Below are positions 18,118 to 55,000 of a DNA stretch of 64,000 nucleotides, piece by piece. The translations under genes were made by a program, and so were the position numbers. Each line of letters starts with the position of its first letter. The stretch's first letter is position 1. The DNA comes from a phage. The stretch lies in the NCBI GenBank assembly GCA_011939005.1, contig GCA_011939005.1_4858.1. One strand, 5' to 3'. A model generated the notes under the pieces. It saw only the letters and a program-made list of their open reading frames with translations. It did not search any database and was not told the origin of the DNA.

Positions 18118-18193
18118 AGGTGTTATCCTATTATGAGATGTTGTCTCGGATAGATAATATCTGTCTGAGTTCTTTTTGAGATGAGGTTATCCC
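18118..18193. promoter_or_regulatory. divergent intergenic region carrying motif TAGATAATATCTGTCTGAG
   Basis: 76-bp gap between divergently oriented genes; contains near-palindromic AT-rich motif (18151-18169) shared with two other intergenic sites. Confidence 0.4.
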
Positions 18194-18664
18194 ATGAGCG
18201 AAGAAGTGAAATACCAAGCGTTCGACGGAGATGTGGACAACGAAGATTCGCTTCTCCGCCAAACACAACAGCTACGCGTTAAGCTCGTCACAGATATGGT
18301 GAACGACGGTGAAGTACACAAAGACTTAAAAGCCGTCGACCGAATCGAACGCCTAATCAACGGCATCGACAAACAGGTCATGACGAAGCGGAAAATTAAA
18401 GCTGCTGAGAAAGGCGCTGAGGCGACTCAAGATTTGGCCAACAGTTTAAACGGCTTCTTAATGACCCGTGCTGGCGTTGGTATCAAACGTCACGACGATG
18501 AAGAAGATTTAAATAACGGATACCAACCCACCGTCCCACAGATTGCCGCAGTACGGCCTCCGAAAGAAGGTGAGTTGGCACCAGTAGGCGAAAAGATTGA
18601 CGTTGACCAGATCATGGCGTCTGCGTTTGCGAGTCGTCGTCCTGCTGATGACGACGAAGACTAA
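18194..18664 (+). CDS. hypothetical acidic protein (plus-strand island)
   Basis: 156-aa ORF, ATG with RBS gaggt; acidic C-terminus ending DDDED; 3' end overlaps convergent gene by 53 nt. Confidence 0.45.
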   Translation: MSEEVKYQAFDGDVDNEDSLLRQTQQLRVKLVTDMVNDGEVHKDLKAVDRIERLINGIDKQVMTKRKIKAAEKGAEATQDLANSLNGFLMTRAGVGIKRHDDEEDLNNGYQPTVPQIAAVRPPKEGELAPVGEKIDVDQIMASAFASRRPADDDED

Positions 18665-19340
18665 ACAGCGCAGTGTCCTTTACGTCAGTACCGACGTATT
18701 GAGCAAGAAAACGGGTGGACTCCTTAAAGGGGTTCACCTTATCTCTTTTTATTTGCGCGATTGCTTCTTCCGTTAATTCGCTGGTCAGCATACTCGGTCG
18801 GGTAATCGTAAAATCCGGAATCGGTTTCTGGAAATGGCTCGCGTGTTGTTCTATCCACGGATACCAATCGTACATTATCCAACCATCCCATGCAGAAGCA
18901 AGTCGTCCTGGTGTAAGATCGCTGTGAGGAATAACAACGACGTCTACTTGCACTTCGTTGTAGTAGTAGCGCAGTTCTTCCAAAAACGCATGACGTTCTT
19001 CATCATCGAGATCAGCGTATGGCCACAGGTTAAACGTTAAGACAGGTCGCTCGATAGGAGCGTGCATCTGTATCGTCATTAACATTGCCTGTACTTCGTT
19101 CTTTAGCGTAAGCAACATTTCTGTTGGCTGCGCGTTCTGCAACGCGCGTTTATCACGCTCCGCGAACTTTTTATTCCAGTCCTGAATTCCTACCACTTCG
19201 GCCCACGCATCCGTGAACCGCATCCGATACACTTCTAAATCAAGCTTCTCTAATACATCAGGCTGCAACACTTTCGCCCAACCAATTCGTGTATCGAAGA
19301 TTGTGTCGATATCGACTAAGAAACGGCGTCCTAATCTCAT
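18612..19340 (-). CDS. hypothetical protein
   Basis: 242-aa ORF, ATG start, ATGA-coupled to upstream gene. Confidence 0.55.
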   Translation of the reverse strand: MRLGRRFLVDIDTIFDTRIGWAKVLQPDVLEKLDLEVYRMRFTDAWAEVVGIQDWNKKFAERDKRALQNAQPTEMLLTLKNEVQAMLMTIQMHAPIERPVLTFNLWPYADLDDEERHAFLEELRYYYNEVQVDVVVIPHSDLTPGRLASAWDGWIMYDWYPWIEQHASHFQKPIPDFTITRPSMLTSELTEEAIAQIKRDKVNPFKESTRFLAQYVGTDVKDTALFSLRRHQQDDDSQTQTP

Positions 19341-22131: not shown

Positions 22132-22229
22132 CAGGTGTTACCTTTTTGCAGTTCTCGTACATAAGGTTTGGGTGATACGTAAAAGACTTACTATGTAGCC
22201 CAATCCCTTATATATTCGAGGTTGATAGA
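22132..22229. promoter_or_regulatory. divergent promoter region
   Basis: 98-bp AT-rich gap between divergently transcribed genes. Confidence 0.35.
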
Positions 22230-22985
22230 ATGAATGTTAATCCACTTGCAGCGTTGTCGGGCTTTGTTGCCAAAGCATCCACGATTCTGCCTAAAGCCTT
22301 TAGCGGCTCTCAACAGGAACTCGCGCTGACCACCTATGACGACATGTCTGATGTGTCCAAGTGGATGCAGCAAGAGAAGTTTTTAAACTTTACCGGAATG
22401 CTTGTACCCGTACCTCCGGGCTTCAACACGTATGTGATGGACCACATAGAACGGTTGGAATCTGTATGGGCTGTGCTCCAGAAGATTCAGGAAGGGGTTT
22501 TAACACCCATCGACAAACGTTTCGGTGCGATGACCCACGACCTGGGCATGTTAACTCTGCCGATTGGGTTTAAGTTCAAAGACCTGAACTACCCACTGAA
22601 AAACATTAACCCGAAAGACCTGGTTGAGAAACTGGCGAAGTCGTACACCAACAATGTGATCGACCAGCGTGCGATTGAAAAGACCTACCACAGTGCAGGT
22701 GAGATTGACGTTGCGTTTAATCGTGCCAAAGCGCTGAACCTGGAAGTGACTAAGAAACTTCAGAAAGGTATTGATCGTACAGTTGAAAGCATCAATGTCT
22801 CTGTAGACATTATCTCTAATTCACAAGTCCATCCTAATGTGGCGGCAGAGTTAGTGAAAATGGCTGACATGGGTGCTGACTGGGTTGAGCTGTTCGGACT
22901 GTTTATGAAACAGATTAATGAACTGACAGAATGCCTGAACGTAACCGGTGATCGCCTCAAGACCCTGAAAGCAAACAAAAAATAA
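22230..22985 (+). CDS. hypothetical protein (plus-strand island)
   Basis: 251-aa ORF, ATG start with RBS gagg; bounded downstream by a bidirectional terminator. Confidence 0.55.
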   Translation: MNVNPLAALSGFVAKASTILPKAFSGSQQELALTTYDDMSDVSKWMQQEKFLNFTGMLVPVPPGFNTYVMDHIERLESVWAVLQKIQEGVLTPIDKRFGAMTHDLGMLTLPIGFKFKDLNYPLKNINPKDLVEKLAKSYTNNVIDQRAIEKTYHSAGEIDVAFNRAKALNLEVTKKLQKGIDRTVESINVSVDIISNSQVHPNVAAELVKMADMGADWVELFGLFMKQINELTECLNVTGDRLKTLKANKK

Positions 22986-23040
22986 AAAGTAAGCAGTACC
23001 CACTCCCCTTACGGGAGTGGGTAGGCTTTATTTTATTTGC
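22985..23040. terminator. bidirectional rho-independent terminator
   Basis: Stem tacccactccc / gggagtgggta (22997-23023) flanked by A-run and ggctttattttatttgc. Confidence 0.7.
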
Positions 23041-23956
23041 ATTTAGAACCGTTGACAAATGTCGGCGGTATCCATTTCAAAATCTTTGTCCGATTCCCGT
23101 CACGTGGACCGAGCCAGTAAGTACACCAGTGTGCACGACGCATATGCGCACATCTGCTACCTTGTGTTCTTTTCTCCGTATCAGTATCAAATTCTTCAAG
23201 ATACTCGCTTTGTGCTTTTACGGTGGAGAGGACAGTCGGTTTAGATTTTGGTTCAATGTGGTAATTGGCGATACGTTTCTTTCCAGTTAATTGTCTCAGT
23301 TTGACGGGTGTAGGGTTGTGCGGGATCAGTGAGAATGTAAACATGGTAGCGCCGACAATGCGTAACGTTTTCTCATTGGCCGGCGTACCAGTTTCCGCCA
23401 CACGCAAGGATACAAAGCCGTCACCCACGTCCACGATTTCAAAGGTTTCCCCCTCGATACGTTTTCCAAAAATCATCATTGTTAAACAATCTTTCCCTTT
23501 AAACATTCGCCGACCGAAAACGTAAGTCTTTTCTTGGATACCGATATCTTTAGCGCGATAGCACACTGAAAAGGAGACGGCCCAACCGGGAATCTTGTCT
23601 ATCCAGCTGCGTGGTATCTCAGTGAGAACGTCGCCAAGTAGAACTTGTTCAAAAATATTAAGATCAAATTCCATTTGGATACCCCCGTATCGCCAGCCGT
23701 AGGCAAGAGACAGGAAGTCTGCGGTGCATTCTTCGGCGAAGCAGTTCTTTAGGAACGCCTCAATCGGTATAAAGTGCTGGCCTATCTCGCCACAATGGGC
23801 TATTGCGTATTGCTCGATGATGGCGGGATCTCCACTTCTGGATTTCACACGTTCGTCGATTTTAGTAAGACCGTTTAAGAAATTACTCGGGGATTCGCGC
23901 ATACCGATTACATCTACATTTACCGATTCTGCCAAATCAAAAAGAAAGCTGTCCAT
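23033..23956 (-). CDS. hypothetical protein
   Basis: 307-aa ORF, ATG with RBS aaggag. Confidence 0.55.
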   Translation of the reverse strand: MDSFLFDLAESVNVDVIGMRESPSNFLNGLTKIDERVKSRSGDPAIIEQYAIAHCGEIGQHFIPIEAFLKNCFAEECTADFLSLAYGWRYGGIQMEFDLNIFEQVLLGDVLTEIPRSWIDKIPGWAVSFSVCYRAKDIGIQEKTYVFGRRMFKGKDCLTMMIFGKRIEGETFEIVDVGDGFVSLRVAETGTPANEKTLRIVGATMFTFSLIPHNPTPVKLRQLTGKKRIANYHIEPKSKPTVLSTVKAQSEYLEEFDTDTEKRTQGSRCAHMRRAHWCTYWLGPRDGNRTKILKWIPPTFVNGSKCK

Positions 23957-23985
23957 TTAATACTCCTTTAGATTAATGGTCGATT

Positions 23986-24020
23986 AAAATAAAACTACGG
24001 ACACCCCGAAGAGTGTCCGT
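23986..24020 (-). terminator. rho-independent terminator
   Basis: Stem acggacac / gtgtccgt (23997-24020) with A-run 23986-23995. Confidence 0.55.
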
Positions 24021-26685: not shown

Positions 26686-26704
26686 TAGATAATATCTATC
26701 TCAG
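26686..26704. promoter_or_regulatory. conserved AT-rich near-palindromic motif (candidate promoter element)
   Basis: TAGATAATATCTATCTCAG; 13-bp core TAGATA-A-TATCTA is palindromic around its centre; lies between a stop codon and the next RBS. Confidence 0.4.
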
Positions 26705-29726: not shown

Positions 29727-29765
29727 TAAAAAAGGAAATCCCCTCTTACCCGAAGGTAAGAGGGA
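29727..29765 (-). terminator. rho-independent terminator (UUCG loop on minus transcript)
   Basis: Stem ccctcttacc / ggtaagaggg with loop cgaa (29741-29764), A-run 29728-29733. Confidence 0.55.
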
Positions 29766-30258: not shown

Positions 30259-30768
30259 TCATGGATTATTAAGCGTCTTGATAATCTCCTGTCGGAAATC
30301 GTTTGCCGCCTGCGACCCCACTGGGCGAGAAGCCGCCTGGTGTTTCTTGGCAGGCGGGCTAGACGGATTTAACGGTGCCTGTGGTGTTACCGGCTTGAGT
30401 TCTTCAGGCGGAACCGCGGCCCCAGTGCCTGTCCCTGTTGGAGATTTGGTACCATCATATGGCGATCGAGAACCCAGGCATGTGAAGAGACGATCGTACA
30501 GCTTATTGTTCTCCACTTCGCCATGATCGGACTTCTCTTTTAGCTCCTTATAGGATATCTCCAGATACTGAGTACGCGATTGGACGCTAACCAGTGTGTG
30601 GTATTGAACAATATAGGCATATGAGACAAATGCAGAGAACGCGACCAGTGCCACTATCACTAGTGTCACTATCTTCCCGGCTCGTGTTACTTTCTCCCCC
30701 TCGCCCGGTTTAAATGCTTCCCACAGCATCTGTAAGAATGGAAGCAGTTTGAAAACTGATGCTATCAT
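30259..30768 (-). CDS. membrane protein with Pro-rich C-terminal region
   Basis: Track start 30774 is GTG; ATG at 30768 has RBS gaggtg. Transmembrane segment IVTLVIVALVAFSAFVSYAYIV, then Pro-rich tail. Confidence 0.5.
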   Translation of the reverse strand: MIASVFKLLPFLQMLWEAFKPGEGEKVTRAGKIVTLVIVALVAFSAFVSYAYIVQYHTLVSVQSRTQYLEISYKELKEKSDHGEVENNKLYDRLFTCLGSRSPYDGTKSPTGTGTGAAVPPEELKPVTPQAPLNPSSPPAKKHQAASRPVGSQAANDFRQEIIKTLNNP

Positions 30769-30792
30769 GCTCACCTCGGAGAGTTTTTAATT

Positions 30793-32172
30793 ATGTATGA
30801 TTTACAAGGCTTTATTCAAATAGCGGCTCTGATTGATAATGGCCCTGGCAACACCGCTCCGGTAGGTGAGTTGTCTGAGCTGTCATATTCGTTCGCTAAA
30901 AGCAAGCAGTATTTTACTAAAGAAAATCTGCAGGTGGAACTGGTTGCTTTTACTTCTAAACGTGACGAGTTGCCTATTAAGACCCCGGCCGTCTTTAGCG
31001 ACCACGTTCTTACTGTTTCCCAATGGATCTACCAACAGTCTATCCTGGGCAACTTAAGAAACGACGAAGTTGAATTCCAGCGTTTGCTGTTGGGGCAATT
31101 TAATAGTGTCATCAGCGGTGTTCAGTCTGGCGCGATGATTCAGACTAACAGTAACTGGTTCCCACGTTGGGTCAGTTGGAAACTTGAAACCACAGCAGAT
31201 AAAGTCGAAGACCCATCTGATGTGAATAACCAGATTATTCTCTGGTTTGCTGATGAAGATTTCAATCAGGACTATACCGGATTTGAAATTGAAGTCCAAA
31301 TGCCGATATTACCGGTTGATACTTTCTTGGCTGTGAAATCTGTAGTCGAAAAGGCAATGGAAGGGTTCAACCTTCCGGATCACCATAATAAGATTAACGA
31401 ATTAGCTGACGGTTATCCGTACACTAGCCTGATTACTAACATCTATACTTGGCACGACCAGGAAGACTTTGATTCCACCTTACCGATACCGATGTCGGTT
31501 ATCATCTACGGCCGCGCAGGTCGTAACCCGAGCAGGATTAAACAAGCGTTACGTGATTACATTTTGGCAAACTCCAGTTTTACTGTGGCGTTGGGTGTCA
31601 AGGTGTTCCCAGAAATCTTTACGACCACCAAGTTCACAATTGTTCCCGGTTGGTCAATTCGTGGGATTCCAAATGAGGAAGATGTTGCGGCATTATACTC
31701 GCCGATTCTCCCATATGATTTCTGGGTCAAAGCAATCTCCCGATTTGGGGAGTGGACTGTTCAAACCATTACGGAAAAAAATAGTGGAGCGATCTCGATT
31801 CCAACTACCGATGTAACGGATTTACCGTCCATCTATAAATCGTTGAACGCCGTGGTTATCGCTGGCCCTGAAAACGATTCACGCAAAACGACCCTGCATG
31901 ACACAATTCCTGACTACGCATTAATCGGCACTAATAATGCGGATATTGCGAGAATGTCGAAGAAAACCACCGAGTGGTTGGATCTGTTCTTCCAGGCGTT
32001 AATTGCAGCCGAAGAGTACCATCCGCACTCCACCCCGTTGGATATCGTGAAGCTCGTAGACGACGTTGATCCTAACGTTTACTTCTACGTCTTCGAATTC
32101 GATAACGTGGAATATCGTGTCTTGGCCCGTAAGGCCATTTGGGATGTTCCTGCGGTAGAGCCAAAAGCCTAA
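30793..32172 (+). CDS. hypothetical protein (plus-strand island)
   Basis: 459-aa ORF, ATG with RBS ggagag; only 24 nt from the divergent minus-strand start. Confidence 0.55.
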   Translation: MYDLQGFIQIAALIDNGPGNTAPVGELSELSYSFAKSKQYFTKENLQVELVAFTSKRDELPIKTPAVFSDHVLTVSQWIYQQSILGNLRNDEVEFQRLLLGQFNSVISGVQSGAMIQTNSNWFPRWVSWKLETTADKVEDPSDVNNQIILWFADEDFNQDYTGFEIEVQMPILPVDTFLAVKSVVEKAMEGFNLPDHHNKINELADGYPYTSLITNIYTWHDQEDFDSTLPIPMSVIIYGRAGRNPSRIKQALRDYILANSSFTVALGVKVFPEIFTTTKFTIVPGWSIRGIPNEEDVAALYSPILPYDFWVKAISRFGEWTVQTITEKNSGAISIPTTDVTDLPSIYKSLNAVVIAGPENDSRKTTLHDTIPDYALIGTNNADIARMSKKTTEWLDLFFQALIAAEEYHPHSTPLDIVKLVDDVDPNVYFYVFEFDNVEYRVLARKAIWDVPAVEPKA

Positions 32173-32182
32173 GGAGGGTTAA

Positions 32183-32806
32183 ATGGCACAACTGTTGCCT
32201 AACACGCCTCAGGTTAACCTTGAGGGGTTGTTCAAGGTTAAGGCACCTTATACGTTGCCAGATAAAGTGATTTACCGTGTTGACGCGGTACAGAACTTTC
32301 CGAAACTCCAACGTAATAATATTGACGTTTATAACAAGTATTATAAACCTGTCGGCCTAACTCGTGACGACTATATCAGCGACGCTAATGTCGAAGCCTC
32401 GATTGTAACATTAAAGTCGAGGGACGGTCAAGTCTACGAGTTGCCTGATACGTACATTGAGACGTATCCTGGACTGAACGGGTTAAATTATAGACGCAAT
32501 GTGGTGGTTATTGACCTGGCATTAATACCCGAATACGTCGATGTCACACTGCTAACGAACGACCTGAAAAGCATTTTAGAACGCGGTTTAGGAATCGAAG
32601 CACGTGTGGACATCACGTCGATGGATTACGAAGGGACGGTGACGGAAGAAGAACACTTGCAAATGGAAGCGGTGCGTAAAGCCAAAATCCGTGAGCAGGT
32701 TCCTCTGACAGAACAAGTTGCAACACTCACTAAGCAGAATCAAGAACTGCAGGCGTTGAATGATGCGATGTTGAAAATCCTGAAAGATAACGGGTTAACA
32801 AATTAA
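32183..32806 (+). CDS. hypothetical protein with C-terminal coiled-coil-like segment
   Basis: 207-aa ORF, ATG with RBS aaggaggg; followed by bidirectional terminator. Confidence 0.55.
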   Translation: MAQLLPNTPQVNLEGLFKVKAPYTLPDKVIYRVDAVQNFPKLQRNNIDVYNKYYKPVGLTRDDYISDANVEASIVTLKSRDGQVYELPDTYIETYPGLNGLNYRRNVVVIDLALIPEYVDVTLLTNDLKSILERGLGIEARVDITSMDYEGTVTEEEHLQMEAVRKAKIREQVPLTEQVATLTKQNQELQALNDAMLKILKDNGLTN

Positions 32807-32860
32807 AGAAAAAAAGAACTACCTACTCCCTTGGGAGTAGGTAGGCTTTTATTTTTTATC
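32805..32860. terminator. bidirectional rho-independent terminator
   Basis: Stem ctacctactccc / gggagtaggtag (32819-32844) flanked by A-run and gcttttattttttatc. Confidence 0.7.
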
Positions 32861-35688: not shown

Positions 35689-35779
35689 GGATGTATCTCC
35701 AAACGGATTTATACTTTTCCGTTCCCAATCCGGGAAGACGGCGCGGACGGCATTGTGCTCCTTTGTAATGTGCCCTGAT

Positions 35780-35791
35780 GATAATATCTAT
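35780..35791. promoter_or_regulatory. conserved motif GATAATATCTAT (third copy)
   Basis: Exact 12-mer also at 26688-26699; overlaps the stop codon of the gene at 35788-36288 and lies upstream of the secreted SLT gene. Confidence 0.35.
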
Positions 35792-36288
35792 TTGAAACTT
35801 TTTGGGATGATTTTCTCTGCTTCCCTCAGCAGGGTGTCCGGTAAATAGAATCGATAAGTCTGCTCCGTGTGCTGTAGTCTTTTCTGTAAGTGTATAAAGA
35901 TTTCCAATCGCTCATGGTAACGTAACCAACCGTTAGCCATCCCTAGGGGCGGTATCGCAATCCCTCCTTCTAAGTCTTCCCCTAGTCGCGCCAGCGCATC
36001 AATGCCGGACGTGACATAGTAAATCTGCGATTTATAGCGAAAATGGGTTTTAGTAGGAAGGAGTATTACCCCTTCCTCAGGATAACAATAGACCTCACCG
36101 ATAACGATTTGCTCTTTACGACATTTCTGGCGATAGTCATTATAAAGCGATGGGAAGCGTTCTCGGCACGCCAAAGCAATGCCCCTTCCCATTGCACCAA
36201 CACAGTTAACTGTAACGACCTTGAAGCGCTCAGGCGCGTTAAACAGGTCGTGGGAGATAATAGCCTCGTCGATCAGTTCTAGTGACAT
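35788..36288 (-). CDS. putative macro-domain (ADP-ribose-binding/processing) protein
   Basis: 166 aa; VVTVNCVGAMGRGIALACRER resembles the macro N-terminal Gly-rich motif and IAIPPLGMANGWL resembles the C-terminal phosphate-binding loop. Motif-level only. Confidence 0.45.
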   Translation of the reverse strand: MSLELIDEAIISHDLFNAPERFKVVTVNCVGAMGRGIALACRERFPSLYNDYRQKCRKEQIVIGEVYCYPEEGVILLPTKTHFRYKSQIYYVTSGIDALARLGEDLEGGIAIPPLGMANGWLRYHERLEIFIHLQKRLQHTEQTYRFYLPDTLLREAEKIIPKSFK

Positions 36289-44990: not shown

Positions 44991-45020
44991 AAAAAAGAAT
45001 AGGCTACCCGGAGGTAGCCA
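44991..45020 (-). terminator. rho-independent terminator
   Basis: Stem taggctacc / ggtagcc(a) with loop cgga; A-run 44991-44996. Confidence 0.5.
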
Positions 45021-45069
45021 TTGAGTTAATCTCTTAACTCTCACCTAAGTAATATATATCTGAGATATT

Positions 45070-48717: not shown

Positions 48718-48838
48718 TTGGTATTTCCTTTTAAAGTACACTAAAGTGACCAAAAAATGTTACTAAAGAACAGTTGGTGTTTAAGCGACTGTGGGTTTAT
48801 ACACAATGCTCACTAAGATGACATCTATCTGTAAAAAC

Positions 48839-49156: not shown

Positions 49157-49340
49157 GGTACTGCACTCCTCGTTAGGTTAAAAGTCAAGGTCAACTACAA
49201 AACAAAAGGATGTCGGTATCCTACGGATACCTCCGTTTATGTTCGCATCCAATACATAAACCCCCTTACCCCCGTACTCTCCTCGATTGTCAAACGATGA
49301 GATCGAAACGTAAAAAAGTGTAGTATGAGAGGAGGGTGGT

Positions 49341-50273
49341 ATGAACAAATCTAAGTCAGGGTTGCACATCTTCTCGATAGGTATCGTCGCGGAAGATAAA
49401 CCTCGTGGTGCCACTCGAGTTAAAGTCATCCCTATCGAAGTTAACTTTATTAATCCAACAGCTGTCGATGCAACAGAGACGCCTGTAGAGAAGCAACACA
49501 ACAGTTTAAGTGGTACTGACAACCTTACTGTAAAGCAAGGTAATGCCATCACTGCAAAATGGATGAAGTCCAACAGCAACCGGGTTAACCCTCCGGATGT
49601 GAAAAAAGAAGACTACGTAAGAATCTGGCGTATCGGTGAAACCGATATGTACTTCTGGGAAGATTTAAACAACAGTAACGTTAAGCGACTGGAAGATGGG
49701 GTATACGCCTGGTCTGCTGACCCAGTAAACCAGATGGCCGATGACCTCTCTAACGCCTACGTACTGAATATCTCCCCGATGGATGGTCACGTTACTTTAC
49801 GTACCAGTATGACTAACGGCGAGAAAAATGCGTATTTGCTCCAGCTGAATACCCGTGACGGGTTTTGCCAGTTAGTGGATGACGAAGGGCGTAAGTTCTA
49901 CCTCAACTCTCCAGAGGATGACTTAGGGTTTGAAAACGCCTGCCGGTCGAAGATTAATATCAATAAAGAGGACGCTTTCATTTATGCTAAACGTTCTATT
50001 AATCTCGAGACAAAGACGATTAACGAGAAGTGCGAAACTCGCAACTCTACAGCGTCGAAAAACATGGCATGGAAGACTGAAGACTGGAAGACCACATGCC
50101 CAACGAATCTATTTACCGGTAACCTGGAAGTAGGTAAAGATTTCCTCTATAACGGCAAAGGTGAAGGTAAGGGCACATTCACAGTTACCGAATCGGTTAT
50201 CGGCGGCATCACCTTTACTCTTCACGTACATACTGGCCATGGTCCGGGCAACGACACCAGTACACCACACTAA
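49341..50273 (+). CDS. hypothetical protein (plus-strand island)
   Basis: 310-aa ORF, ATG with RBS gagaggaggg; preceded by a 184-bp intergenic region. Confidence 0.55.
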   Translation: MNKSKSGLHIFSIGIVAEDKPRGATRVKVIPIEVNFINPTAVDATETPVEKQHNSLSGTDNLTVKQGNAITAKWMKSNSNRVNPPDVKKEDYVRIWRIGETDMYFWEDLNNSNVKRLEDGVYAWSADPVNQMADDLSNAYVLNISPMDGHVTLRTSMTNGEKNAYLLQLNTRDGFCQLVDDEGRKFYLNSPEDDLGFENACRSKININKEDAFIYAKRSINLETKTINEKCETRNSTASKNMAWKTEDWKTTCPTNLFTGNLEVGKDFLYNGKGEGKGTFTVTESVIGGITFTLHVHTGHGPGNDTSTPH

Positions 50274-50480
50274 GTTATTTACGTGTGTGGGGTATAATGT
50301 GACAATAAACCCCTAACTGTAACGATAACCCGAATCGCTTGTGCACAGTTAGCCACTTTTTTCGCACAAAAGCCGGTTTATTGTCAACTAATTTACGAGT
50401 CGGGGCAGTTAATATGCCTTGAAGTACAAGTAGTTGAACATAGGGTTCTTCTGCTATCATTTGTTAATGGAGATAAGTAA

Positions 50481-50690
50481 ATGAGCATTCGTGAAATCAC
50501 CGCAGGCAGCGACGTTTCTGGTCTGGTAGAAGCAGGCACCGTTCAGGTTTCTGGACTGAGCACCGTTACCGAAGTTACCGAAGCGCTGGCTAAGAAAGCC
50601 GAAGCTGAAGGCGGCGTAGCATTTAAAGTTACCGCTTGCGGCGGCAACAACAAAATGTTCGGCAACGCCATCTATTACGTAAACGCGTAA
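50481..50690 (+). CDS. DUF1471 (YdgH/BhsA/YjfY)-like small protein without signal peptide
   Basis: 69 aa; VSGLSTVTEVTEALAKKAEAEGGVAFKVTACGGNNKMFGNAIYY fits the enterobacterial DUF1471 pattern; an in-frame stop lies immediately upstream of the ATG; RBS ggagataag. Confidence 0.6.
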   Translation: MSIREITAGSDVSGLVEAGTVQVSGLSTVTEVTEALAKKAEAEGGVAFKVTACGGNNKMFGNAIYYVNA

Positions 50691-50703: not shown

Positions 50704-50762
50704 AAAAAAAGATATAGGTACCCTACTCCCGTTGGGAGTAGGGTTTACCTTTTATTTTTTTC
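50704..50762. terminator. bidirectional rho-independent terminator
   Basis: Stem accctactccc / gggagtagggt (50720-50744) flanked by A-run and ttaccttttatttttttcg. Confidence 0.7.
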
Positions 50763-52014: not shown

Positions 52015-52081
52015 TGGCTGTTTCCTCTAAGGATTCGGGTCATAGTATGAACTCGACGCCCTCAGAGAAAAGGAGTGTAAA
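52015..52081. promoter_or_regulatory. divergent promoter region of the tail-fibre operon
   Basis: 67-bp gap between divergently oriented genes; contains TAGTATGA, also present upstream of the plus-strand gene at 49341. Confidence 0.35.
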
Positions 52082-55000
52082 ATGGCTGTCGTCCCTGACC
52101 CGCACTATCAAGAACCGGGGAATATGCAGACCGGTGAAGCGGTAACGCCGATCGGTACTAAGTACCGGATGCTGTTCCCCGCACACGCCCCCTTTTATAC
52201 CACATCCCTGGTGGTCAAGAGTGGCGGCAAGAAATTAACATTAGGTGATGATTACGTCATCACCCATGCGTACGTTACGGGCATGGCACGCACTGGCCAT
52301 GTTTGTCACGGCGGCGTGTGGATTACCAACCCGAAATATCAGAGTGGCTTTACACTCGATTACCACGCAATTGGCATCGGTGAAGCCACTGCAGAAATGA
52401 TCGCCGCAGAACGAGAAGCGAATAAAGATCGCTATCCCGTGGACTGCCAATGGGATAACGTCATTGGGGATTTATATTTCCCACCGGTCGATATTAAGTT
52501 CGATTGGGAAAACTGGCGTGGCGAATCTGAGTTGATGGAAGCCATTGTTGCGGTTGGTGCTAAGCTCGGTGAAGCGATCAGTCGCGTTGACCCGATTGCT
52601 CGTAACACGTTAGACCTTCAATATCGCGCCGGCGTCACGCTTATCACGTCCGAGCAGTATGCGACGTACGACGGTACTGGCGGCTACACGTATAACGCGT
52701 CACGTCGTCGTTATTCGTTATCTTACCAGAACACGACATTCGATGCGTATTCGTTAGCGGTAAAATACCGTTTACCGAGCATTCCACCGGAAACAACGTT
52801 GAACCCAGGCGAGTTGATCGATTGGATGCTCTGTTACGCAAACGGTGGGACAAGTATCCTGCGTCTTCAGTTGAAGCAACGCGCGATTTATCTTACCTTA
52901 ACGACAGCGATTGGTTCCGGTTCGTCCAATTACAGCTATACGTTGACGACTGGCCTGACTGATACCGAGTTGGCGGGTGAGGTTGAGTTTAGCGTGGTCA
53001 GACGCGAAGGTAACGGCGTTTACGACATCACCGTTAAAACAAGCAAGCAAACCGTTAACTACAGCTTTAACGTTGACAACCCACCGAGCGAATTTGCACC
53101 AGGGTATCAGAAAACTGATGTCGCAAAATGGTTGAAGTTTAAATCGGGCGTCAACCTAAACTGGTGGGCAGGTGAGAACGATTACGTCCAGATTCGTTCA
53201 TTACCAGGCGCACCGGCACCTGACGTTAACAATGACGTGTACCAGCTGCTGGTAAAATATCACCAGATTGTCGATAAACTGTACCGTGATGCACCGGCAC
53301 ACACACACGTGCCGCGCAAGGATAACCCGCATCGCGATTCGTGGGGCGCAATCCGTGCTTTGGAGAATAACGGTATTGCTTCGGACGCGACACTGGTATA
53401 CGGAAAAACGCAACCGCAGCTGACAGATTACGTTAACAATCTGTTGCCGAAACTGTCAACGCTGGCGAATAAGCTTTTACGTTTACCGGCGGCTGCACAG
53501 TCTATCATCGGCACGTTCGGCATGAAGCCTGGCCTGACTTCAATAACGTCAGCAGTGGGTACCGATGAGTCTGAAGGCGTGGGTGCACAATTCACGGTTG
53601 ACCCGAGGGTTATCCGTTTTATTGGCCGCGATTCGCAAACCGTTAACGCCGGGAACAATCCGATTACATGGCAAGGTGGGGCTAACCAACTCATCCTTTA
53701 TCCGGATTCCCGTGGATTGGAGTTCAACGGTAAGAAACTGTTGGACCCTACTACGGTCGGGCCGTACCTGCCGGGTAACGAATCAGGTGGTGATGGACTG
53801 TTTTACGGAACATCCACAGCTACTGTAACCATTAACGGTAACGGTATTCAGTCTGTTCCGTTCATTTGTACCTTTGTTCCACCGGAGTCCGATGACCTTG
53901 GCCTGATGGCTGTCCGTTTGTTGGCTACTGAATTCGGCGATCGTGAGGACTTGGCCGCAACGCCGGCACTCATCAAGAAATTGGATCAGCAGTTTACGGG
54001 CAAGTTGGTTGCCGTTAAATCGTACATCAACGACATGCCACTGACGAGTTCTATTTACATCGATAAAACTAACTTCGGCTTATCGAACGTACAGAACATC
54101 CCAGATGTACAATTGCCGATTTCCCCGCTCCAACAAGCTGAGCTGGACAAGTATGCAGTCGTCGGTCACAAACACACTTCTGCCGCGTTCGGGATTAAGC
54201 GTGCAACAACGACGGAGTTCGGTTTAGTACAGTTCGGCACCGCGGTTGACGATGCCACTCTGGCATTAGACGGTGGTGAGGTCATCCGACAGGCGGACGC
54301 CATCACAGAGATAGAGAAGGTTGCGAAGACAGTCGACTCTGGTGCTTCAATCAACATTATTCGTTACGGTTTACCCGGCACGGATATCATTGAAAACGGC
54401 ATCACTTACACCGACTGGATGGTTACTATTAAAGCGAACGATTATTTCGTTGGTCGCGAGTACAAAGTACCTCTCTCCACATTTAACTTGGCGGAGCTAT
54501 TCCCAGCGACGCACGAAGATGCTGAGTTTGGCGTGTATGTTGACGCGGCGGGCGATGACGGCAAGTACATTATCTACGAAAATCCAAACACGGCAGAAAC
54601 TGAGACGATGACCAAAATAGGTTCCATCATCACCAGTGAAACCGGTGTGGTTTTTGTAGAAATCCGCAACGTGACGCGTTTAGGTGAGTTCCGTGAATTA
54701 GGCGAGCATATCGAGGATGATAACGCCCATATTCGTCGGGGCATGACGCAAGCTGAATTCGGATTTACTTACGGTACGGGCGGGCCTGTGTGGTCCACGG
54801 GCGCACCGGGTACAAAACGTATAGATGCTGATTGGCGTTACGCGCAGGCTAGCGGCTATACGCCTATGTTGAAAGCGGACTACGATCCGGCTGCTGATAA
54901 ATGGACGTTTAAAACAACCAGTTTATCTGTAACCGATTATCGTTTTGTCCACAACACGTTCCCGATGTTCCAGAATAACGGCATTACCGCAACGTGGACA

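What the first reader, a model, noticed from the sequence alone, without database searches (positions are those of the whole stretch)
30793..32806. Plus-strand gene islands embedded in the minus-strand block
Four islands (18194-18664; 22230-22985; 30793-32806; 49341-50690) run opposite to about 60 surrounding genes, and three end at bidirectional terminators. The 30793 island starts only 24 nt from a divergent gene, so promoters must lie within coding sequence. These may be late or structural genes interleaved with early genes, or independently acquired morons; TAGTATGA occurs upstream of both 49341 and the fibre operon at 52082.
Basis: inference. Interest (0 to 1): 0.45.

Follow-up and report, generated by a model that had tools for sequence, protein, structure and literature searches.

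The report
Opposite-strand late virion gene islands
The four plus-strand "islands" are real but ordinary: they are ancient, conserved transcription units of an SPN3US-type jumbo phage, and four of their six genes encode virion (baseplate, spike, head) proteins, so they are not recently acquired morons.

Summary
The window is an SPN3US-like jumbo phage (97-99% identical to SPN3US and JN03). All four islands exist as described. They correspond to SPN3US gp220, gp214, gp203-gp202 and gp173-gp172.

The flagged island (30793-32806) encodes homologues of phiKZ gp157 (baseplate brace ring) and gp161 (baseplate "horn"). Both are tail proteins in published SPN3US virion proteomics, and gp203 is essential.

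The layout is conserved: the four islands keep place and orientation in three more genera, and the gp203-gp202 module does so in every chimallivirus lineage examined, including phiKZ, Goslar and OBP. Base composition is not atypical. The moron reading is therefore rejected, except possibly for tiny gp172.

It is a conserved footprint upstream of gp173 and gp170/gp171. Related TATG footprints lie upstream of gp214 and gp172. Published phiKZ RNA-seq shows gp157 rising late, like the capsid gene.

Three islands end in symmetric hairpin terminators, as does nearly every convergent junction in the SPN3US genome.

The 24-nt divergent gap is real and conserved, and holds only two ribosome-binding sites. 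The gp203 promoter must lie elsewhere, probably inside gp204, but this is unproven.

This is known biology and of low interest.

The parts
30793..32172 (+). gp203 homologue. Orthologue of phiKZ gp157, the baseplate outer "brace ring" protein. Essential tail protein in SPN3US.
   Evidence: phrog_3293 E 3e-176. PDB 9xqd PHIKZ157 E 3e-49. phiKZ structural atlas. SPN3US proteomics and amber mutant.
32183..32806 (+). gp202 homologue (DUF7194). Orthologue of phiKZ gp161 "horn" (ring HR2) and of Goslar gp187, a lower-wedge inner baseplate protein. The 10-nt gap to gp203 implies one operon.
   Evidence: Pfam DUF7194 E 2e-71. PDB 11lx, 9xqs and 36za.. Tail protein.
30769..30792 (.). 24-nt divergent gap between gp204 (-) and gp203 (+). 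It holds only two back-to-back ribosome-binding sites: GGAGAG at 30778-30783 for gp203, and GAGGTGA (complement of 30771-30777) for gp204. It has no TATG and no early motif.
   Evidence: Gap of 23-24 nt in Asesino, ChrisDB and Phobos.
30259..30768 (-). gp204, the divergent neighbour (169 aa from ATG 30768). Its coding sequence must carry, or be crossed by, the gp203 promoter or 5' UTR.
30620..30623 (+). Candidate embedded promoter core TATG(AGA), with the G at 30623, 170 nt upstream of gp203. Present in Seoulvirus, shifted 6 nt in ChrisDB and Phobos, absent in Asesino. Inferred only.
30456..30461 (.). CATATG palindrome inside gp204 (TATG on both strands; + strand G at 30461, 332 nt upstream of gp203). 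It lies within TCATATGGC, the longest invariant run seen in the 1.1-kb six-phage, four-genus alignment (by inspection). Candidate bidirectional embedded promoter. Inferred only.
32819..32844 (.). Symmetric hairpin terminator between convergent gp202 (+) and gp201 (-). A-tract at 32809-32815, T-tracts at 32847-32857.
   Evidence: -21.9 and -21.5 kcal/mol.
18194..18664 (+). gp220 island. Homologue of phiKZ gp169, not a virion protein. Its 3' end overlaps convergent gp219 by 53 nt. A hairpin that folds better on the + strand lies at 18713-18739.
18151..18166 (-). Early-promoter-like palindromic motif AGACAGATATTATCTA driving gp221. Its mirror image lies in the 5' region of gp220.
22230..22985 (+). 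gp214 island. Homologue of phiKZ gp153. Essential head protein.
22192..22195 (+). Conserved TATG (TTACTATGTAGCCC) 35 nt upstream of gp214. A second conserved TATG on the - strand (22160-22163, preceded by TTTTACG) faces gp215.
22997..23023 (.). Symmetric hairpin terminator after gp214.
   Evidence: -26.9 and -26.1 kcal/mol.
49341..50273 (+). gp173. Orthologue of the phiKZ gp164 central spike.
   Evidence: phrog_3216. PDB 6orj E 3e-27..
49321..49328 (+). TAGTATGA, with the predicted +1 G at 49327, 14 nt before the gp173 ATG. The leader carries GAGGAGG. TATG is conserved in four genera.
50481..50690 (+). gp172. A 69-aa DUF1471 (YdgH/BhsA-like) protein with no signal peptide, not detected in virions. 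Found only in the SPN3US clade. It has its own conserved TATG (50413-50416).
50720..50744 (.). Symmetric hairpin terminator between gp172 (+) and gp171 (-).
52041..52050 (.). Palindromic CATAGTATGA in the 67-nt gp171/gp170 divergent gap. It gives back-to-back TATG cores: + strand G at 52049 for tail-fibre gene gp170, - strand G at 52041 for tail gene gp171. GGTCATA(G/A)TATGA(A/C)C is conserved in four genera.

Best explanation
The islands are old, conserved, self-contained transcription units of a chimallivirus (phiKZ-like, nucleus-forming jumbo phage).

What is shown. Four of the six island genes encode virion parts: two baseplate proteins (gp203, gp202), the central spike (gp173) and a head protein (gp214). 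They sit on the minority strand between majority-strand operons for replication, nucleotide metabolism and unknown functions.

What is inferred from sequence and from phiKZ. Transcription starts at phiKZ-type promoters for the phage's non-virion RNA polymerase. The core of these promoters is TATG, with the G as +1. Transcription ends at a G+C-rich hairpin flanked by A and T tracts. The same hairpin also stops the converging majority-strand operon.

Opposite orientation plus a two-way terminator insulates these genes from read-through. That read-through would come from the early promoters (motif AGATAGATATTATCTA), which occur only on the majority strand.

For the flagged island, the ancestral TATG promoter seen just upstream of the gp203 homologue in other lineages has been squeezed out of a 24-nt gap. 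The promoter is inferred to lie antisense inside gp204. Candidates are the G at 30623 and the G at 30461.
For: Identity and function.
- Searches give the gene assignments, virion proteomics, essentiality and solved structures.

Deep conservation of place and strand.
- All four islands are present in Asesino, ChrisDB and Phobos.
- The gp203-gp202 module, divergent from the RNase H cluster, is present in the Vibrio phage, phiKZ, Goslar, PhiPA3, PhiEaH1, RAY and OBP.
- gp203 homologues occur in 288 phage records.

Promoters.
- Literature: phiKZ late promoters are T(-3)ATG(+1), and all four bases are needed in vitro.
- TATG footprints are conserved across four genera upstream of gp173, gp172, gp214 and gp170/gp171.
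- Goslar, OBP, RAY, phiKZ and the Vibrio phage have TATG 14-40 nt upstream of the gp203 homologue; Goslar reads GATAGTATGAAA.
- In SPN3US, sense TATG density is 10.1/kb in intergenic regions upstream of virion genes and 3.96/kb upstream of non-virion genes.
- The early motif has 7 hits in the window against 0.37 expected, and 27 in SPN3US. Apart from palindromic mirror images and two weak intragenic matches, all face majority-strand non-virion genes.

Timing.
- phiKZ gp157 RNA read counts are 1563, 1761, 2463, 5195 and 15696 at 5-30 min. The rise is abolished by ChmA knock-down and parallels the capsid gene.

Terminators.
- for the folds. Bidirectional terminators are reported in phiKZ and 201phi2-1.

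Embedded promoters.
- The 450 nt upstream of the ten tight-junction genes hold 14 antisense TATG against 4.2 expected (P = 1e-4).

Enrichment for virion genes.
- 4 of 6 against 5 of 59 in the window (p = 0.0024).
- 19 of 33 against 64 of 231 genome-wide (p = 0.001).
Against: - There are no transcript data for this phage or for any SPN3US-clade phage in the searchable library. The SPN3US time-course proteomics paper could not be read.
- TATG is only 4 nt. In phiKZ it is necessary but not sufficient.
- TATG also precedes non-virion genes (gp215, gp186, gp227). It therefore marks transcription by the non-virion polymerase, not strictly "late" timing.
- gp220 and gp172 are not virion proteins, and the gp220 TATG is not conserved.
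- The majority strand carries 64 virion genes, so strand is not a clean proxy for timing.
- For gp203, neither candidate promoter is proven. The -170 TATG is missing in Asesino. The -332 CATATG overlaps a conserved Pro-Tyr codon pair, which could explain its invariance.
Confidence: 0.75

Rival explanations
1. The islands are morons: small cassettes with their own promoter and terminator, acquired independently by horizontal transfer. Putzeys et al. 2024 suggested this for the phiKZ orthologues PHIKZ153 and PHIKZ169.
For: - Each island has its own predicted promoter and terminator.
- gp172 carries a bacterial-type DUF1471 domain, is restricted to the SPN3US clade (32 phage records against 288 for gp203), and sits where phiKZ has an unrelated PAAR protein.
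Against: - Place and orientation are the same in at least four genera for all islands, and across every chimallivirus lineage examined for gp203-gp202.
- gp214 matches PHIKZ153 and gp220 matches PHIKZ169. Any acquisition therefore predates the split between phiKZ and SPN3US.
- gp203 and gp214 are essential.
- Four of the six are virion parts.
- GC3 lies within 1.2 sd of the block.
Confidence: 0.05
2. The orientation is a neutral relic of ancient local inversions. The islands are expressed with the same timing as their neighbours, and strand has no regulatory meaning.
For: - The majority strand also holds 64 virion genes.
- gp220 and gp172 are non-virion proteins.
- TATG is also found upstream of majority-strand non-virion genes.
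- Virion genes gp171, gp193, gp218, gp223 and gp225 lie inside the block.
- In 201phi2-1, several virion genes use middle promoters.
Against: - Orientation is preserved over a divergence down to about 25% protein identity.
- Minority-strand genes are enriched for virion proteins.
- No early motif faces an island.
- phiKZ gp157 follows a late profile, whereas neighbour phiKZ155 is already highly expressed at 20 min.
Confidence: 0.15
3. gp203-gp202 is not driven by a TATG embedded in gp204. The alternatives are an unconventional element overlapping the junction (for example the conserved CTATCATG at 30762-30769) or a long antisense transcript from far upstream.
For: - GCTATCATGCTCACCTCGGAG is conserved in three genera, and its G at 30769 would give a 23-nt leader carrying the ribosome-binding site.
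- The promoter rules of the SPN3US non-virion polymerase have not been tested.
- 32 of 149 phiKZ start sites have no recognisable motif.
Against: - The conserved string is also the start codon and second codon of gp204 plus its ribosome-binding site. Phobos lacks the ATG there.
- A + strand hairpin with a T-run at 29741-29764 would stop transcripts coming from further upstream.
- Single substitutions in TATG abolish phiKZ transcription in vitro.
Confidence: 0.2

Closest known systems
phiKZ single-gene and short opposite-strand transcription units (TU118 PHIKZ153, TU123 PHIKZ169; the gp157-gp163 cluster), mapped by ONT-cappable-seq (Putzeys 2024, PMC10914365)
   Same: The genes are orthologous: gp214 = gp153, gp220 = gp169, gp203 = gp157, gp202 = gp161, gp173 = gp164. 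Orientation relative to neighbours is the same. Each has its own start and terminator. Bidirectional terminators lie between convergent genes.
   Different: In phiKZ the gp157 island has grown to seven genes and its divergent gap is 178 nt, with TATG at -14. Here it has two genes and a 24-nt gap with no TATG. No start sites have been measured for this phage.
phiKZ late promoters for the non-virion RNA polymerase, T(-3)ATG(+1) (Ceyssens 2014; Yakunina 2015, PMC4666361)
   Same: A TATG core sits 14-65 nt upstream of late virion genes, with little other conservation.
   Different: This clade tends towards a longer core, (A)GTATGA(C). Function here is inferred from conservation only.
AR9 late promoters inside early operons and inside ORFs (Lavysh 2017, PMC5312081)
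   Same: Late units are nested within early operons. Thirteen late promoters are internal to ORFs and seven drive antisense RNA. This is a precedent for promoters inside coding sequence.
   Different: AR9 uses a different motif (AACA-N6-TA/G), has uracil DNA, and is not nucleus-forming.
T4 strand segregation of late genes (own knowledge; not checked here)
   Same: Late structural genes are largely transcribed from the strand opposite to early genes.
   Different: T4 uses the host polymerase with gp55/gp33. Here the phage encodes its own polymerases, and strand segregation is only partial.

Membership tests
Chimallivirus baseplate proteins (PHIKZ157 brace ring; PHIKZ161 / Goslar gp187 horn or lower wedge) | Full-length sequence homology to the structurally assigned proteins | tested here: met
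   gp203 against 9xqd_J: E 3e-49 over residues 1-449. gp202 against 11lx_n: E 3e-28; against 9xqs_E: E 2e-20.
Chimallivirus baseplate proteins (PHIKZ157 brace ring; PHIKZ161 / Goslar gp187 horn or lower wedge) | Present in the virion and dependent on the tail | tested here: met
   From the literature: SPN3US gp202 and gp203 were detected in virions (38-54 spectra) and were absent from tailless particles.
phiKZ-type late promoter for the non-virion polymerase | TATG core upstream of the gene, in sense orientation | tested here: met
   Met and conserved across four genera for gp173, gp172, gp214, gp170 and gp171. NOT met within the 24-nt gap of gp203.
phiKZ-type late promoter for the non-virion polymerase | Transcription starts at the G of TATG and depends on the non-virion polymerase | not testable with these tools
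   Needs 5'-end mapping or in vitro transcription.
phiKZ-type late promoter for the non-virion polymerase | Late accumulation of the transcript | tested here: inconclusive
   Shown only for the phiKZ orthologue gp157. There are no data for this phage.
Moron | Own promoter and terminator | tested here: met
   Predicted only.
Moron | Sporadic presence among relatives | tested here: not met
   Present at the same site in all relatives examined. gp172 is clade-restricted but fixed within the clade.
Moron | Dispensable accessory function | tested here: not met
   gp203 and gp214 are essential, and four of the six genes are virion parts.
Moron | Atypical base composition | tested here: not met
   GC3 z-scores range from -0.32 to +1.22.
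Bidirectional intrinsic terminator | Stable G+C-rich hairpin with an A-tract 5' and a T-tract 3', between convergent genes | tested here: met
   Three sites, -21 to -28 kcal/mol on both strands.
Bidirectional intrinsic terminator | Termination measured in both directions | not testable with these tools
   Needs 3'-end mapping.

The most novel reading that the evidence does not exclude
Two linked ideas that the evidence does not exclude.

1. At tight divergent junctions (gp203/gp204, and also gp49/50, gp73/74, gp81/82 and gp239/240), the late promoter is a TATG embedded antisense in the 5' part of the neighbouring gene. The late baseplate transcript would then begin as an antisense RNA of 170-330 nt covering the neighbour's ribosome-binding site. 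Switching on the late gene would also switch off the earlier neighbour, by collision or RNA pairing. This would be a built-in temporal toggle.

2. Because the promoter core is only 4 nt, the whole genome has been purged of TATG, most strongly on the antisense strand of genes. This would keep the promoter specific.
Probability: 0.2. Interest if true: 0.5.

Novelty: already known. Interest (0 to 1): 0.2.

Why it matters
- It explains an eye-catching layout as a conserved way of organising genes, not as recent gene gain.
- It corrects a published suggestion that the phiKZ counterparts PHIKZ153 and PHIKZ169 "were acquired individually".
- It gives a testable promoter and terminator map for SPN3US-type phages. 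No transcript map for this clade was found in the library. The map has three parts: an early motif (AGATAGATATTATCTA), a TATG late core, and symmetric hairpins. This is useful for engineering and annotation.
- The TATG purge and the embedded antisense promoters are modest leads on how a 4-nt promoter can be specific.

Tried and rejected
- Host sigma-70-type promoters. Consensus matches are no more frequent than in shuffles (19 against 23.5; 14 against 22.2). They are not relevant here.
- The GTATGA that overlaps the gp203 start (ATGTATGA). This is coding sequence (Met-Tyr-Asp) and is not conserved; Asesino and ChrisDB read ATGTTAG.
- The - strand TATG at 30884-30887 as the gp204 promoter. It is present only in Seoulvirus.
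- The "CGTAAAAAAG" element upstream of the gp173 and gp214 TATG. It is the reverse complement of the TTTTTTACG element belonging to the divergent gene, so it is not part of the island promoter.
- gp172 as the spike tip. It has no similarity to the phiKZ PAAR protein gp163.1.
- Rfam and tRNA scans of the window found nothing.
- An apparent truncation of gp239 at the window start is only the window edge.
- Papers that could not be read: Ceyssens 2014, Weintraub 2019, and the supplement of Putzeys 2024.
- The stored phiKZ time-course table was cut, so only gp157 could be read.
Full report
**What the window is.** A 5-kb stretch around the finding is 98.8% identical to Salmonella phage JN03 and Escherichia phage EC001, and 97.5% identical to SPN3US. 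The window is therefore an SPN3US-type jumbo phage of genus Seoulvirus, a phiKZ-like phage. It is read as the reverse complement of the reference record.

**Checking the observation.**
- They map to SPN3US gp220 (18194-18664), gp214 (22230-22985), gp203 and gp202 (30793-32172 and 32183-32806), and gp173 and gp172 (49341-50273 and 50481-50690).
- Each matches a phage protein family strongly.
- The block is flanked on both sides by + strand tail operons: gp239-gp237 on the left and gp170-gp168 on the right.

**The 24-nt gap.**
- gp204 has in-frame starts at 30774 (GTG), 30768 (ATG) and 30729 (ATG).
- ATG 30768 is preceded by GAGGTGA. The stretch GCTATCATGCTCACCTCGGAG is conserved in Seoulvirus, Erskinevirus and Machinavirus.
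- JN03, Asesino, ChrisDB and Phobos annotate gaps of 23-24 nt. The SPN3US reference start is probably 39 nt too short.
- The gap is filled by the two ribosome-binding sites.

**The terminators.**
- Hairpins at 22997-23023, 32819-32844 and 50720-50744 have 11-bp G+C-rich stems, an A-tract before and a T-tract after.
- They fold at -21 to -28 kcal/mol on either strand, and no shuffle did as well.
- gp220 instead overlaps convergent gp219 by 53 nt. Its hairpin lies inside gp219 and folds better on the + strand (-20.0 versus -13.6 kcal/mol).
- In the whole SPN3US genome, nearly every convergent junction has such a hairpin. The feature is generic, as also reported for phiKZ (6 bidirectional terminators) and 201phi2-1 (15).

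**What the genes are.**
- Thomas et al. 2016 (PMC5105663) detected gp173, gp202 and gp203 in virions but not in tailless particles, so they are tail proteins. gp214 was present in both, so it is a head protein.
- gp203 and gp214 were hit by amber mutations and are essential. gp220 and gp172 were not detected.
- The paper's Table S1 pairs these genes with phiKZ ORF164, 161, 157, 153 and 169. I confirmed the weaker pairs directly.
- Solved structures exist for the phiKZ and Goslar homologues.
- In the phiKZ structural atlas (PMC13250141), gp157 forms a ring of 18 dimers bracing the outer baseplate. gp161 is the "horn" of ring HR2. gp164 is the central spike.
- Goslar gp187 is a lower-wedge protein.
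- The flagged island is therefore a two-gene baseplate operon.

**Morons or core genes?**
- gp203 homologues occur in 288 phage records spanning all chimallivirus lineages.
- All four islands sit in the same place and orientation in Asesino, ChrisDB and Phobos.
- The module [quoted passage not shown] is also present in a Vibrio phage, phiKZ, Goslar, PhiPA3, PhiEaH1, RAY and OBP. In most of these a convergent gene follows directly; in phiKZ the cluster has grown to seven genes.
- GC3 of every island gene lies within 1.2 sd of the block.
- This also contradicts the suggestion in Putzeys 2024 that PHIKZ153 and PHIKZ169 "were acquired individually". Any such event would have to predate the phiKZ-SPN3US split.
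- Only gp172 keeps a moron-like flavour. It has a bacterial DUF1471 domain with no signal peptide. It is restricted to the SPN3US clade. It occupies the place of the phiKZ PAAR spike tip, to which it is unrelated.

**Promoters: the literature.**
- phiKZ early genes use an AT-rich motif near -10, read by the virion polymerase.
- Late genes use T(-3)ATG(+1), read by the non-virion polymerase. All four bases are needed in vitro, but they are not sufficient.

**Promoters: the early motif.**
- A palindromic motif AGA(Y)AGATATTATCTA occurs 7 times in the window against 0.37 expected.
- Six of the seven hits are on the minus strand, and five of those lie upstream of block genes. The seventh is the mirror image of the palindromic site upstream of gp221.
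- In SPN3US it occurs 27 times. Apart from mirror images and two weak intragenic matches, all hits face majority-strand non-virion genes.
- No island has one facing it.

**Promoters: TATG footprints.**
- Alignments of island upstream regions across four genera show TATG footprints at gp173 (TAGTATGA, G at 49327), gp172 (G at 50416) and gp214 (G at 22195).
- The palindrome GGTCATAGTATGAAC between gp171 and gp170 supplies TATG on both strands.
Its count (2) is not above chance. Its placement and conservation are what matter.
- In SPN3US, sense TATG density is 10.1/kb upstream of virion genes and 3.96/kb upstream of other genes. Many sites read (A)GTATGA(C).

**Timing.**
- No transcript map of an SPN3US-clade phage was found.
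- In published phiKZ data (Gerovac 2025, PMC12571901, source data), gp157 RNA is flat to 15 min and rises about 10-fold by 30 min. This parallels the capsid gene, and ChmA knock-down abolishes it.
- The neighbour phiKZ155 (RNase H, equivalent to SPN3US gp207) is already highly expressed at 20 min.
- This supports late expression distinct from the flanks, by orthology only.

**The gp203 promoter.**
- In Goslar, OBP, RAY, phiKZ and the Vibrio phage, a TATG lies 14-40 nt upstream of the gp203 homologue in a gap of 50-178 nt. Goslar reads GATAGTATGAAA.
- In the SPN3US clade the gap has shrunk to 24 nt and holds none.
- Between the + strand hairpin at 29741-29764 and the gp203 ATG there are only three + strand TATGs: 30254, 30461 and 30623.
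- The CATATG at 30456-30461 lies in TCATATGGC, the longest invariant run I could see in a 1.1-kb alignment of six phages. It also encodes a conserved Pro-Tyr.
- TATGAGA at 30620 is conserved in Seoulvirus, shifted 6 nt in two genera and absent in Asesino.
- Genome-wide, the 450 nt upstream of the ten genes at tight divergent junctions hold 14 antisense TATG against 4.2 expected (P = 1e-4).
No single site is proven.

**How general is "opposite strand means structural"?**
- In the window, 4 of 6 island genes are virion proteins against 5 of 59 in the block (p = 0.0024).
- Genome-wide, the figures are 19 of 33 on the minority strand against 64 of 231 on the majority strand (p = 0.001).
- This is an enrichment, not a rule. 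Large virion operons also lie on the majority strand. The block holds virion genes gp171, gp193, gp218, gp223 and gp225. Some block genes have TATG sites of their own.

**By-product: TATG depletion.**
- TATG is depleted in the window: 254 observed against 437 +/- 20 in dinucleotide shuffles.
- The depletion persists against a synonymous-codon null: sense 145 against 221, antisense 64 against 106. Similar tetramers are not depleted.
- Density per kb is 2.75 on the coding sense strand, 1.09 on the antisense strand and 3.31 in intergenic sequence.
- Observed/expected ratios are 0.54-0.70 in the window and three other chimalliviruses, against 0.85 in an E. coli control.
- This fits selection against stray promoter cores, but one control is thin.

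**Verdict.** The "late structural genes" reading is largely right and the "moron" reading is wrong. The phenomenon is already described for phiKZ-like phages. Interest is low.

Noticed in passing
Whole window; also L003 (phiKZ), L010, L012: TATG is strongly under-represented. The window has 254 against 437 +/- 20 in shuffles, and the depletion holds against a synonymous-codon null. It is strongest on the antisense strand of genes (1.09/kb against 3.3/kb in intergenic sequence). Observed/expected is 0.54-0.70 in the window and three other chimalliviruses, against 0.85 in an E. coli control. One possible cause is purging of stray late-promoter cores.
   Followed up: partly
Window, - strand: 18151-18166, 26686-26701, 35778-35793, 45046-45061, 48815-48830, about 29700: A palindromic AT-rich motif, AGA(Y)AGATATTATCTA, lies 30-100 nt upstream of block genes (7 hits against 0.37 expected). 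SPN3US has 27 copies. Apart from mirror images and two weak intragenic matches, all face majority-strand non-virion genes. It is probably the clade's early promoter for the virion polymerase.
   Followed up: partly
Window 22990-24020 (ORF 23033-23956, - strand): A segment of about 977 bp carries a 307-aa ORF (phrog_6160, function unknown). It is present here and in JN03, and a gene of matching size and position is annotated in Asesino and ChrisDB. It is absent from the SPN3US reference. The indel lies directly beside the gp214 terminator.
   Followed up: partly
Window 45002-45061, - strand: An early-type motif (45046-45061) is followed about 25 nt later by a terminator-like hairpin with a T-run (45019-45002), all upstream of gp180. 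This looks like a 5'-UTR attenuator or short RNA, as described for phiKZ T102/PHIKZ221.
   Followed up: no
Window 18612-18664 and 18713-18739: gp220 and gp219 converge and overlap by 53 nt. The overlap is 56, 53 and 23 nt in three other genera. A hairpin that folds better on the + strand (-20.0 versus -13.6 kcal/mol) lies inside the gp219 coding sequence.
   Followed up: partly
Window 50481-50690: gp172 is a 69-aa DUF1471 (YdgH/BhsA-like) domain with no signal peptide. It has its own conserved TATG and its own terminator. It sits downstream of the spike gene, where phiKZ has the PAAR spike tip gp163.1. Its function and origin are unknown.
   Followed up: partly
Window 22997-23023, 32819-32844, 50720-50744; SPN3US 137597 and 72441: The terminator hairpins at the island ends share one stem sequence (…ACTCCC-loop-GGGAGT…). 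The same family occurs at the SPN3US gp158/gp159 junction and after the capsid gene. This could be a shared origin or convergence. Such repeats could serve as substrates for inversion.
   Followed up: no
Window, - strand, upstream of gp215 (22179), gp186 (41900), gp227 and gp192; + strand upstream of gp172: A T-run ending in TTTAC(G) lies upstream of a TATG: 14-16 nt at gp215, gp186 and gp227, and 8-20 nt at gp172 across genera. It often also forms the tail of the preceding terminator. It resembles the phiKZ middle-promoter element AAanTTACc at -24.
   Followed up: partly
Window 30729-30768: The SPN3US reference annotation of gp204 probably starts 39 nt too late. ATG 30768, preceded by GAGGTGA, is conserved and is used in the JN03, Asesino, ChrisDB and Phobos annotations.
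   Followed up: yes
Window 35689-35787: SPN3US gp197 (43 aa, opposite strand) is probably spurious, and JN03 does not annotate it. The gap instead holds an early-type motif followed by a 13-codon - strand mini-ORF upstream of the endolysin gene gp198.
   Followed up: no
SPN3US genome (L019-L023): gp49/50, gp73/74, gp81/82, gp239/240: Four further divergent junctions measure 11-29 nt, so the tight gp203/gp204 arrangement is a recurring design. The gp49/50 gap contains the palindrome AACTCCGGAGTT, which supplies both ribosome-binding sites.
   Followed up: partly
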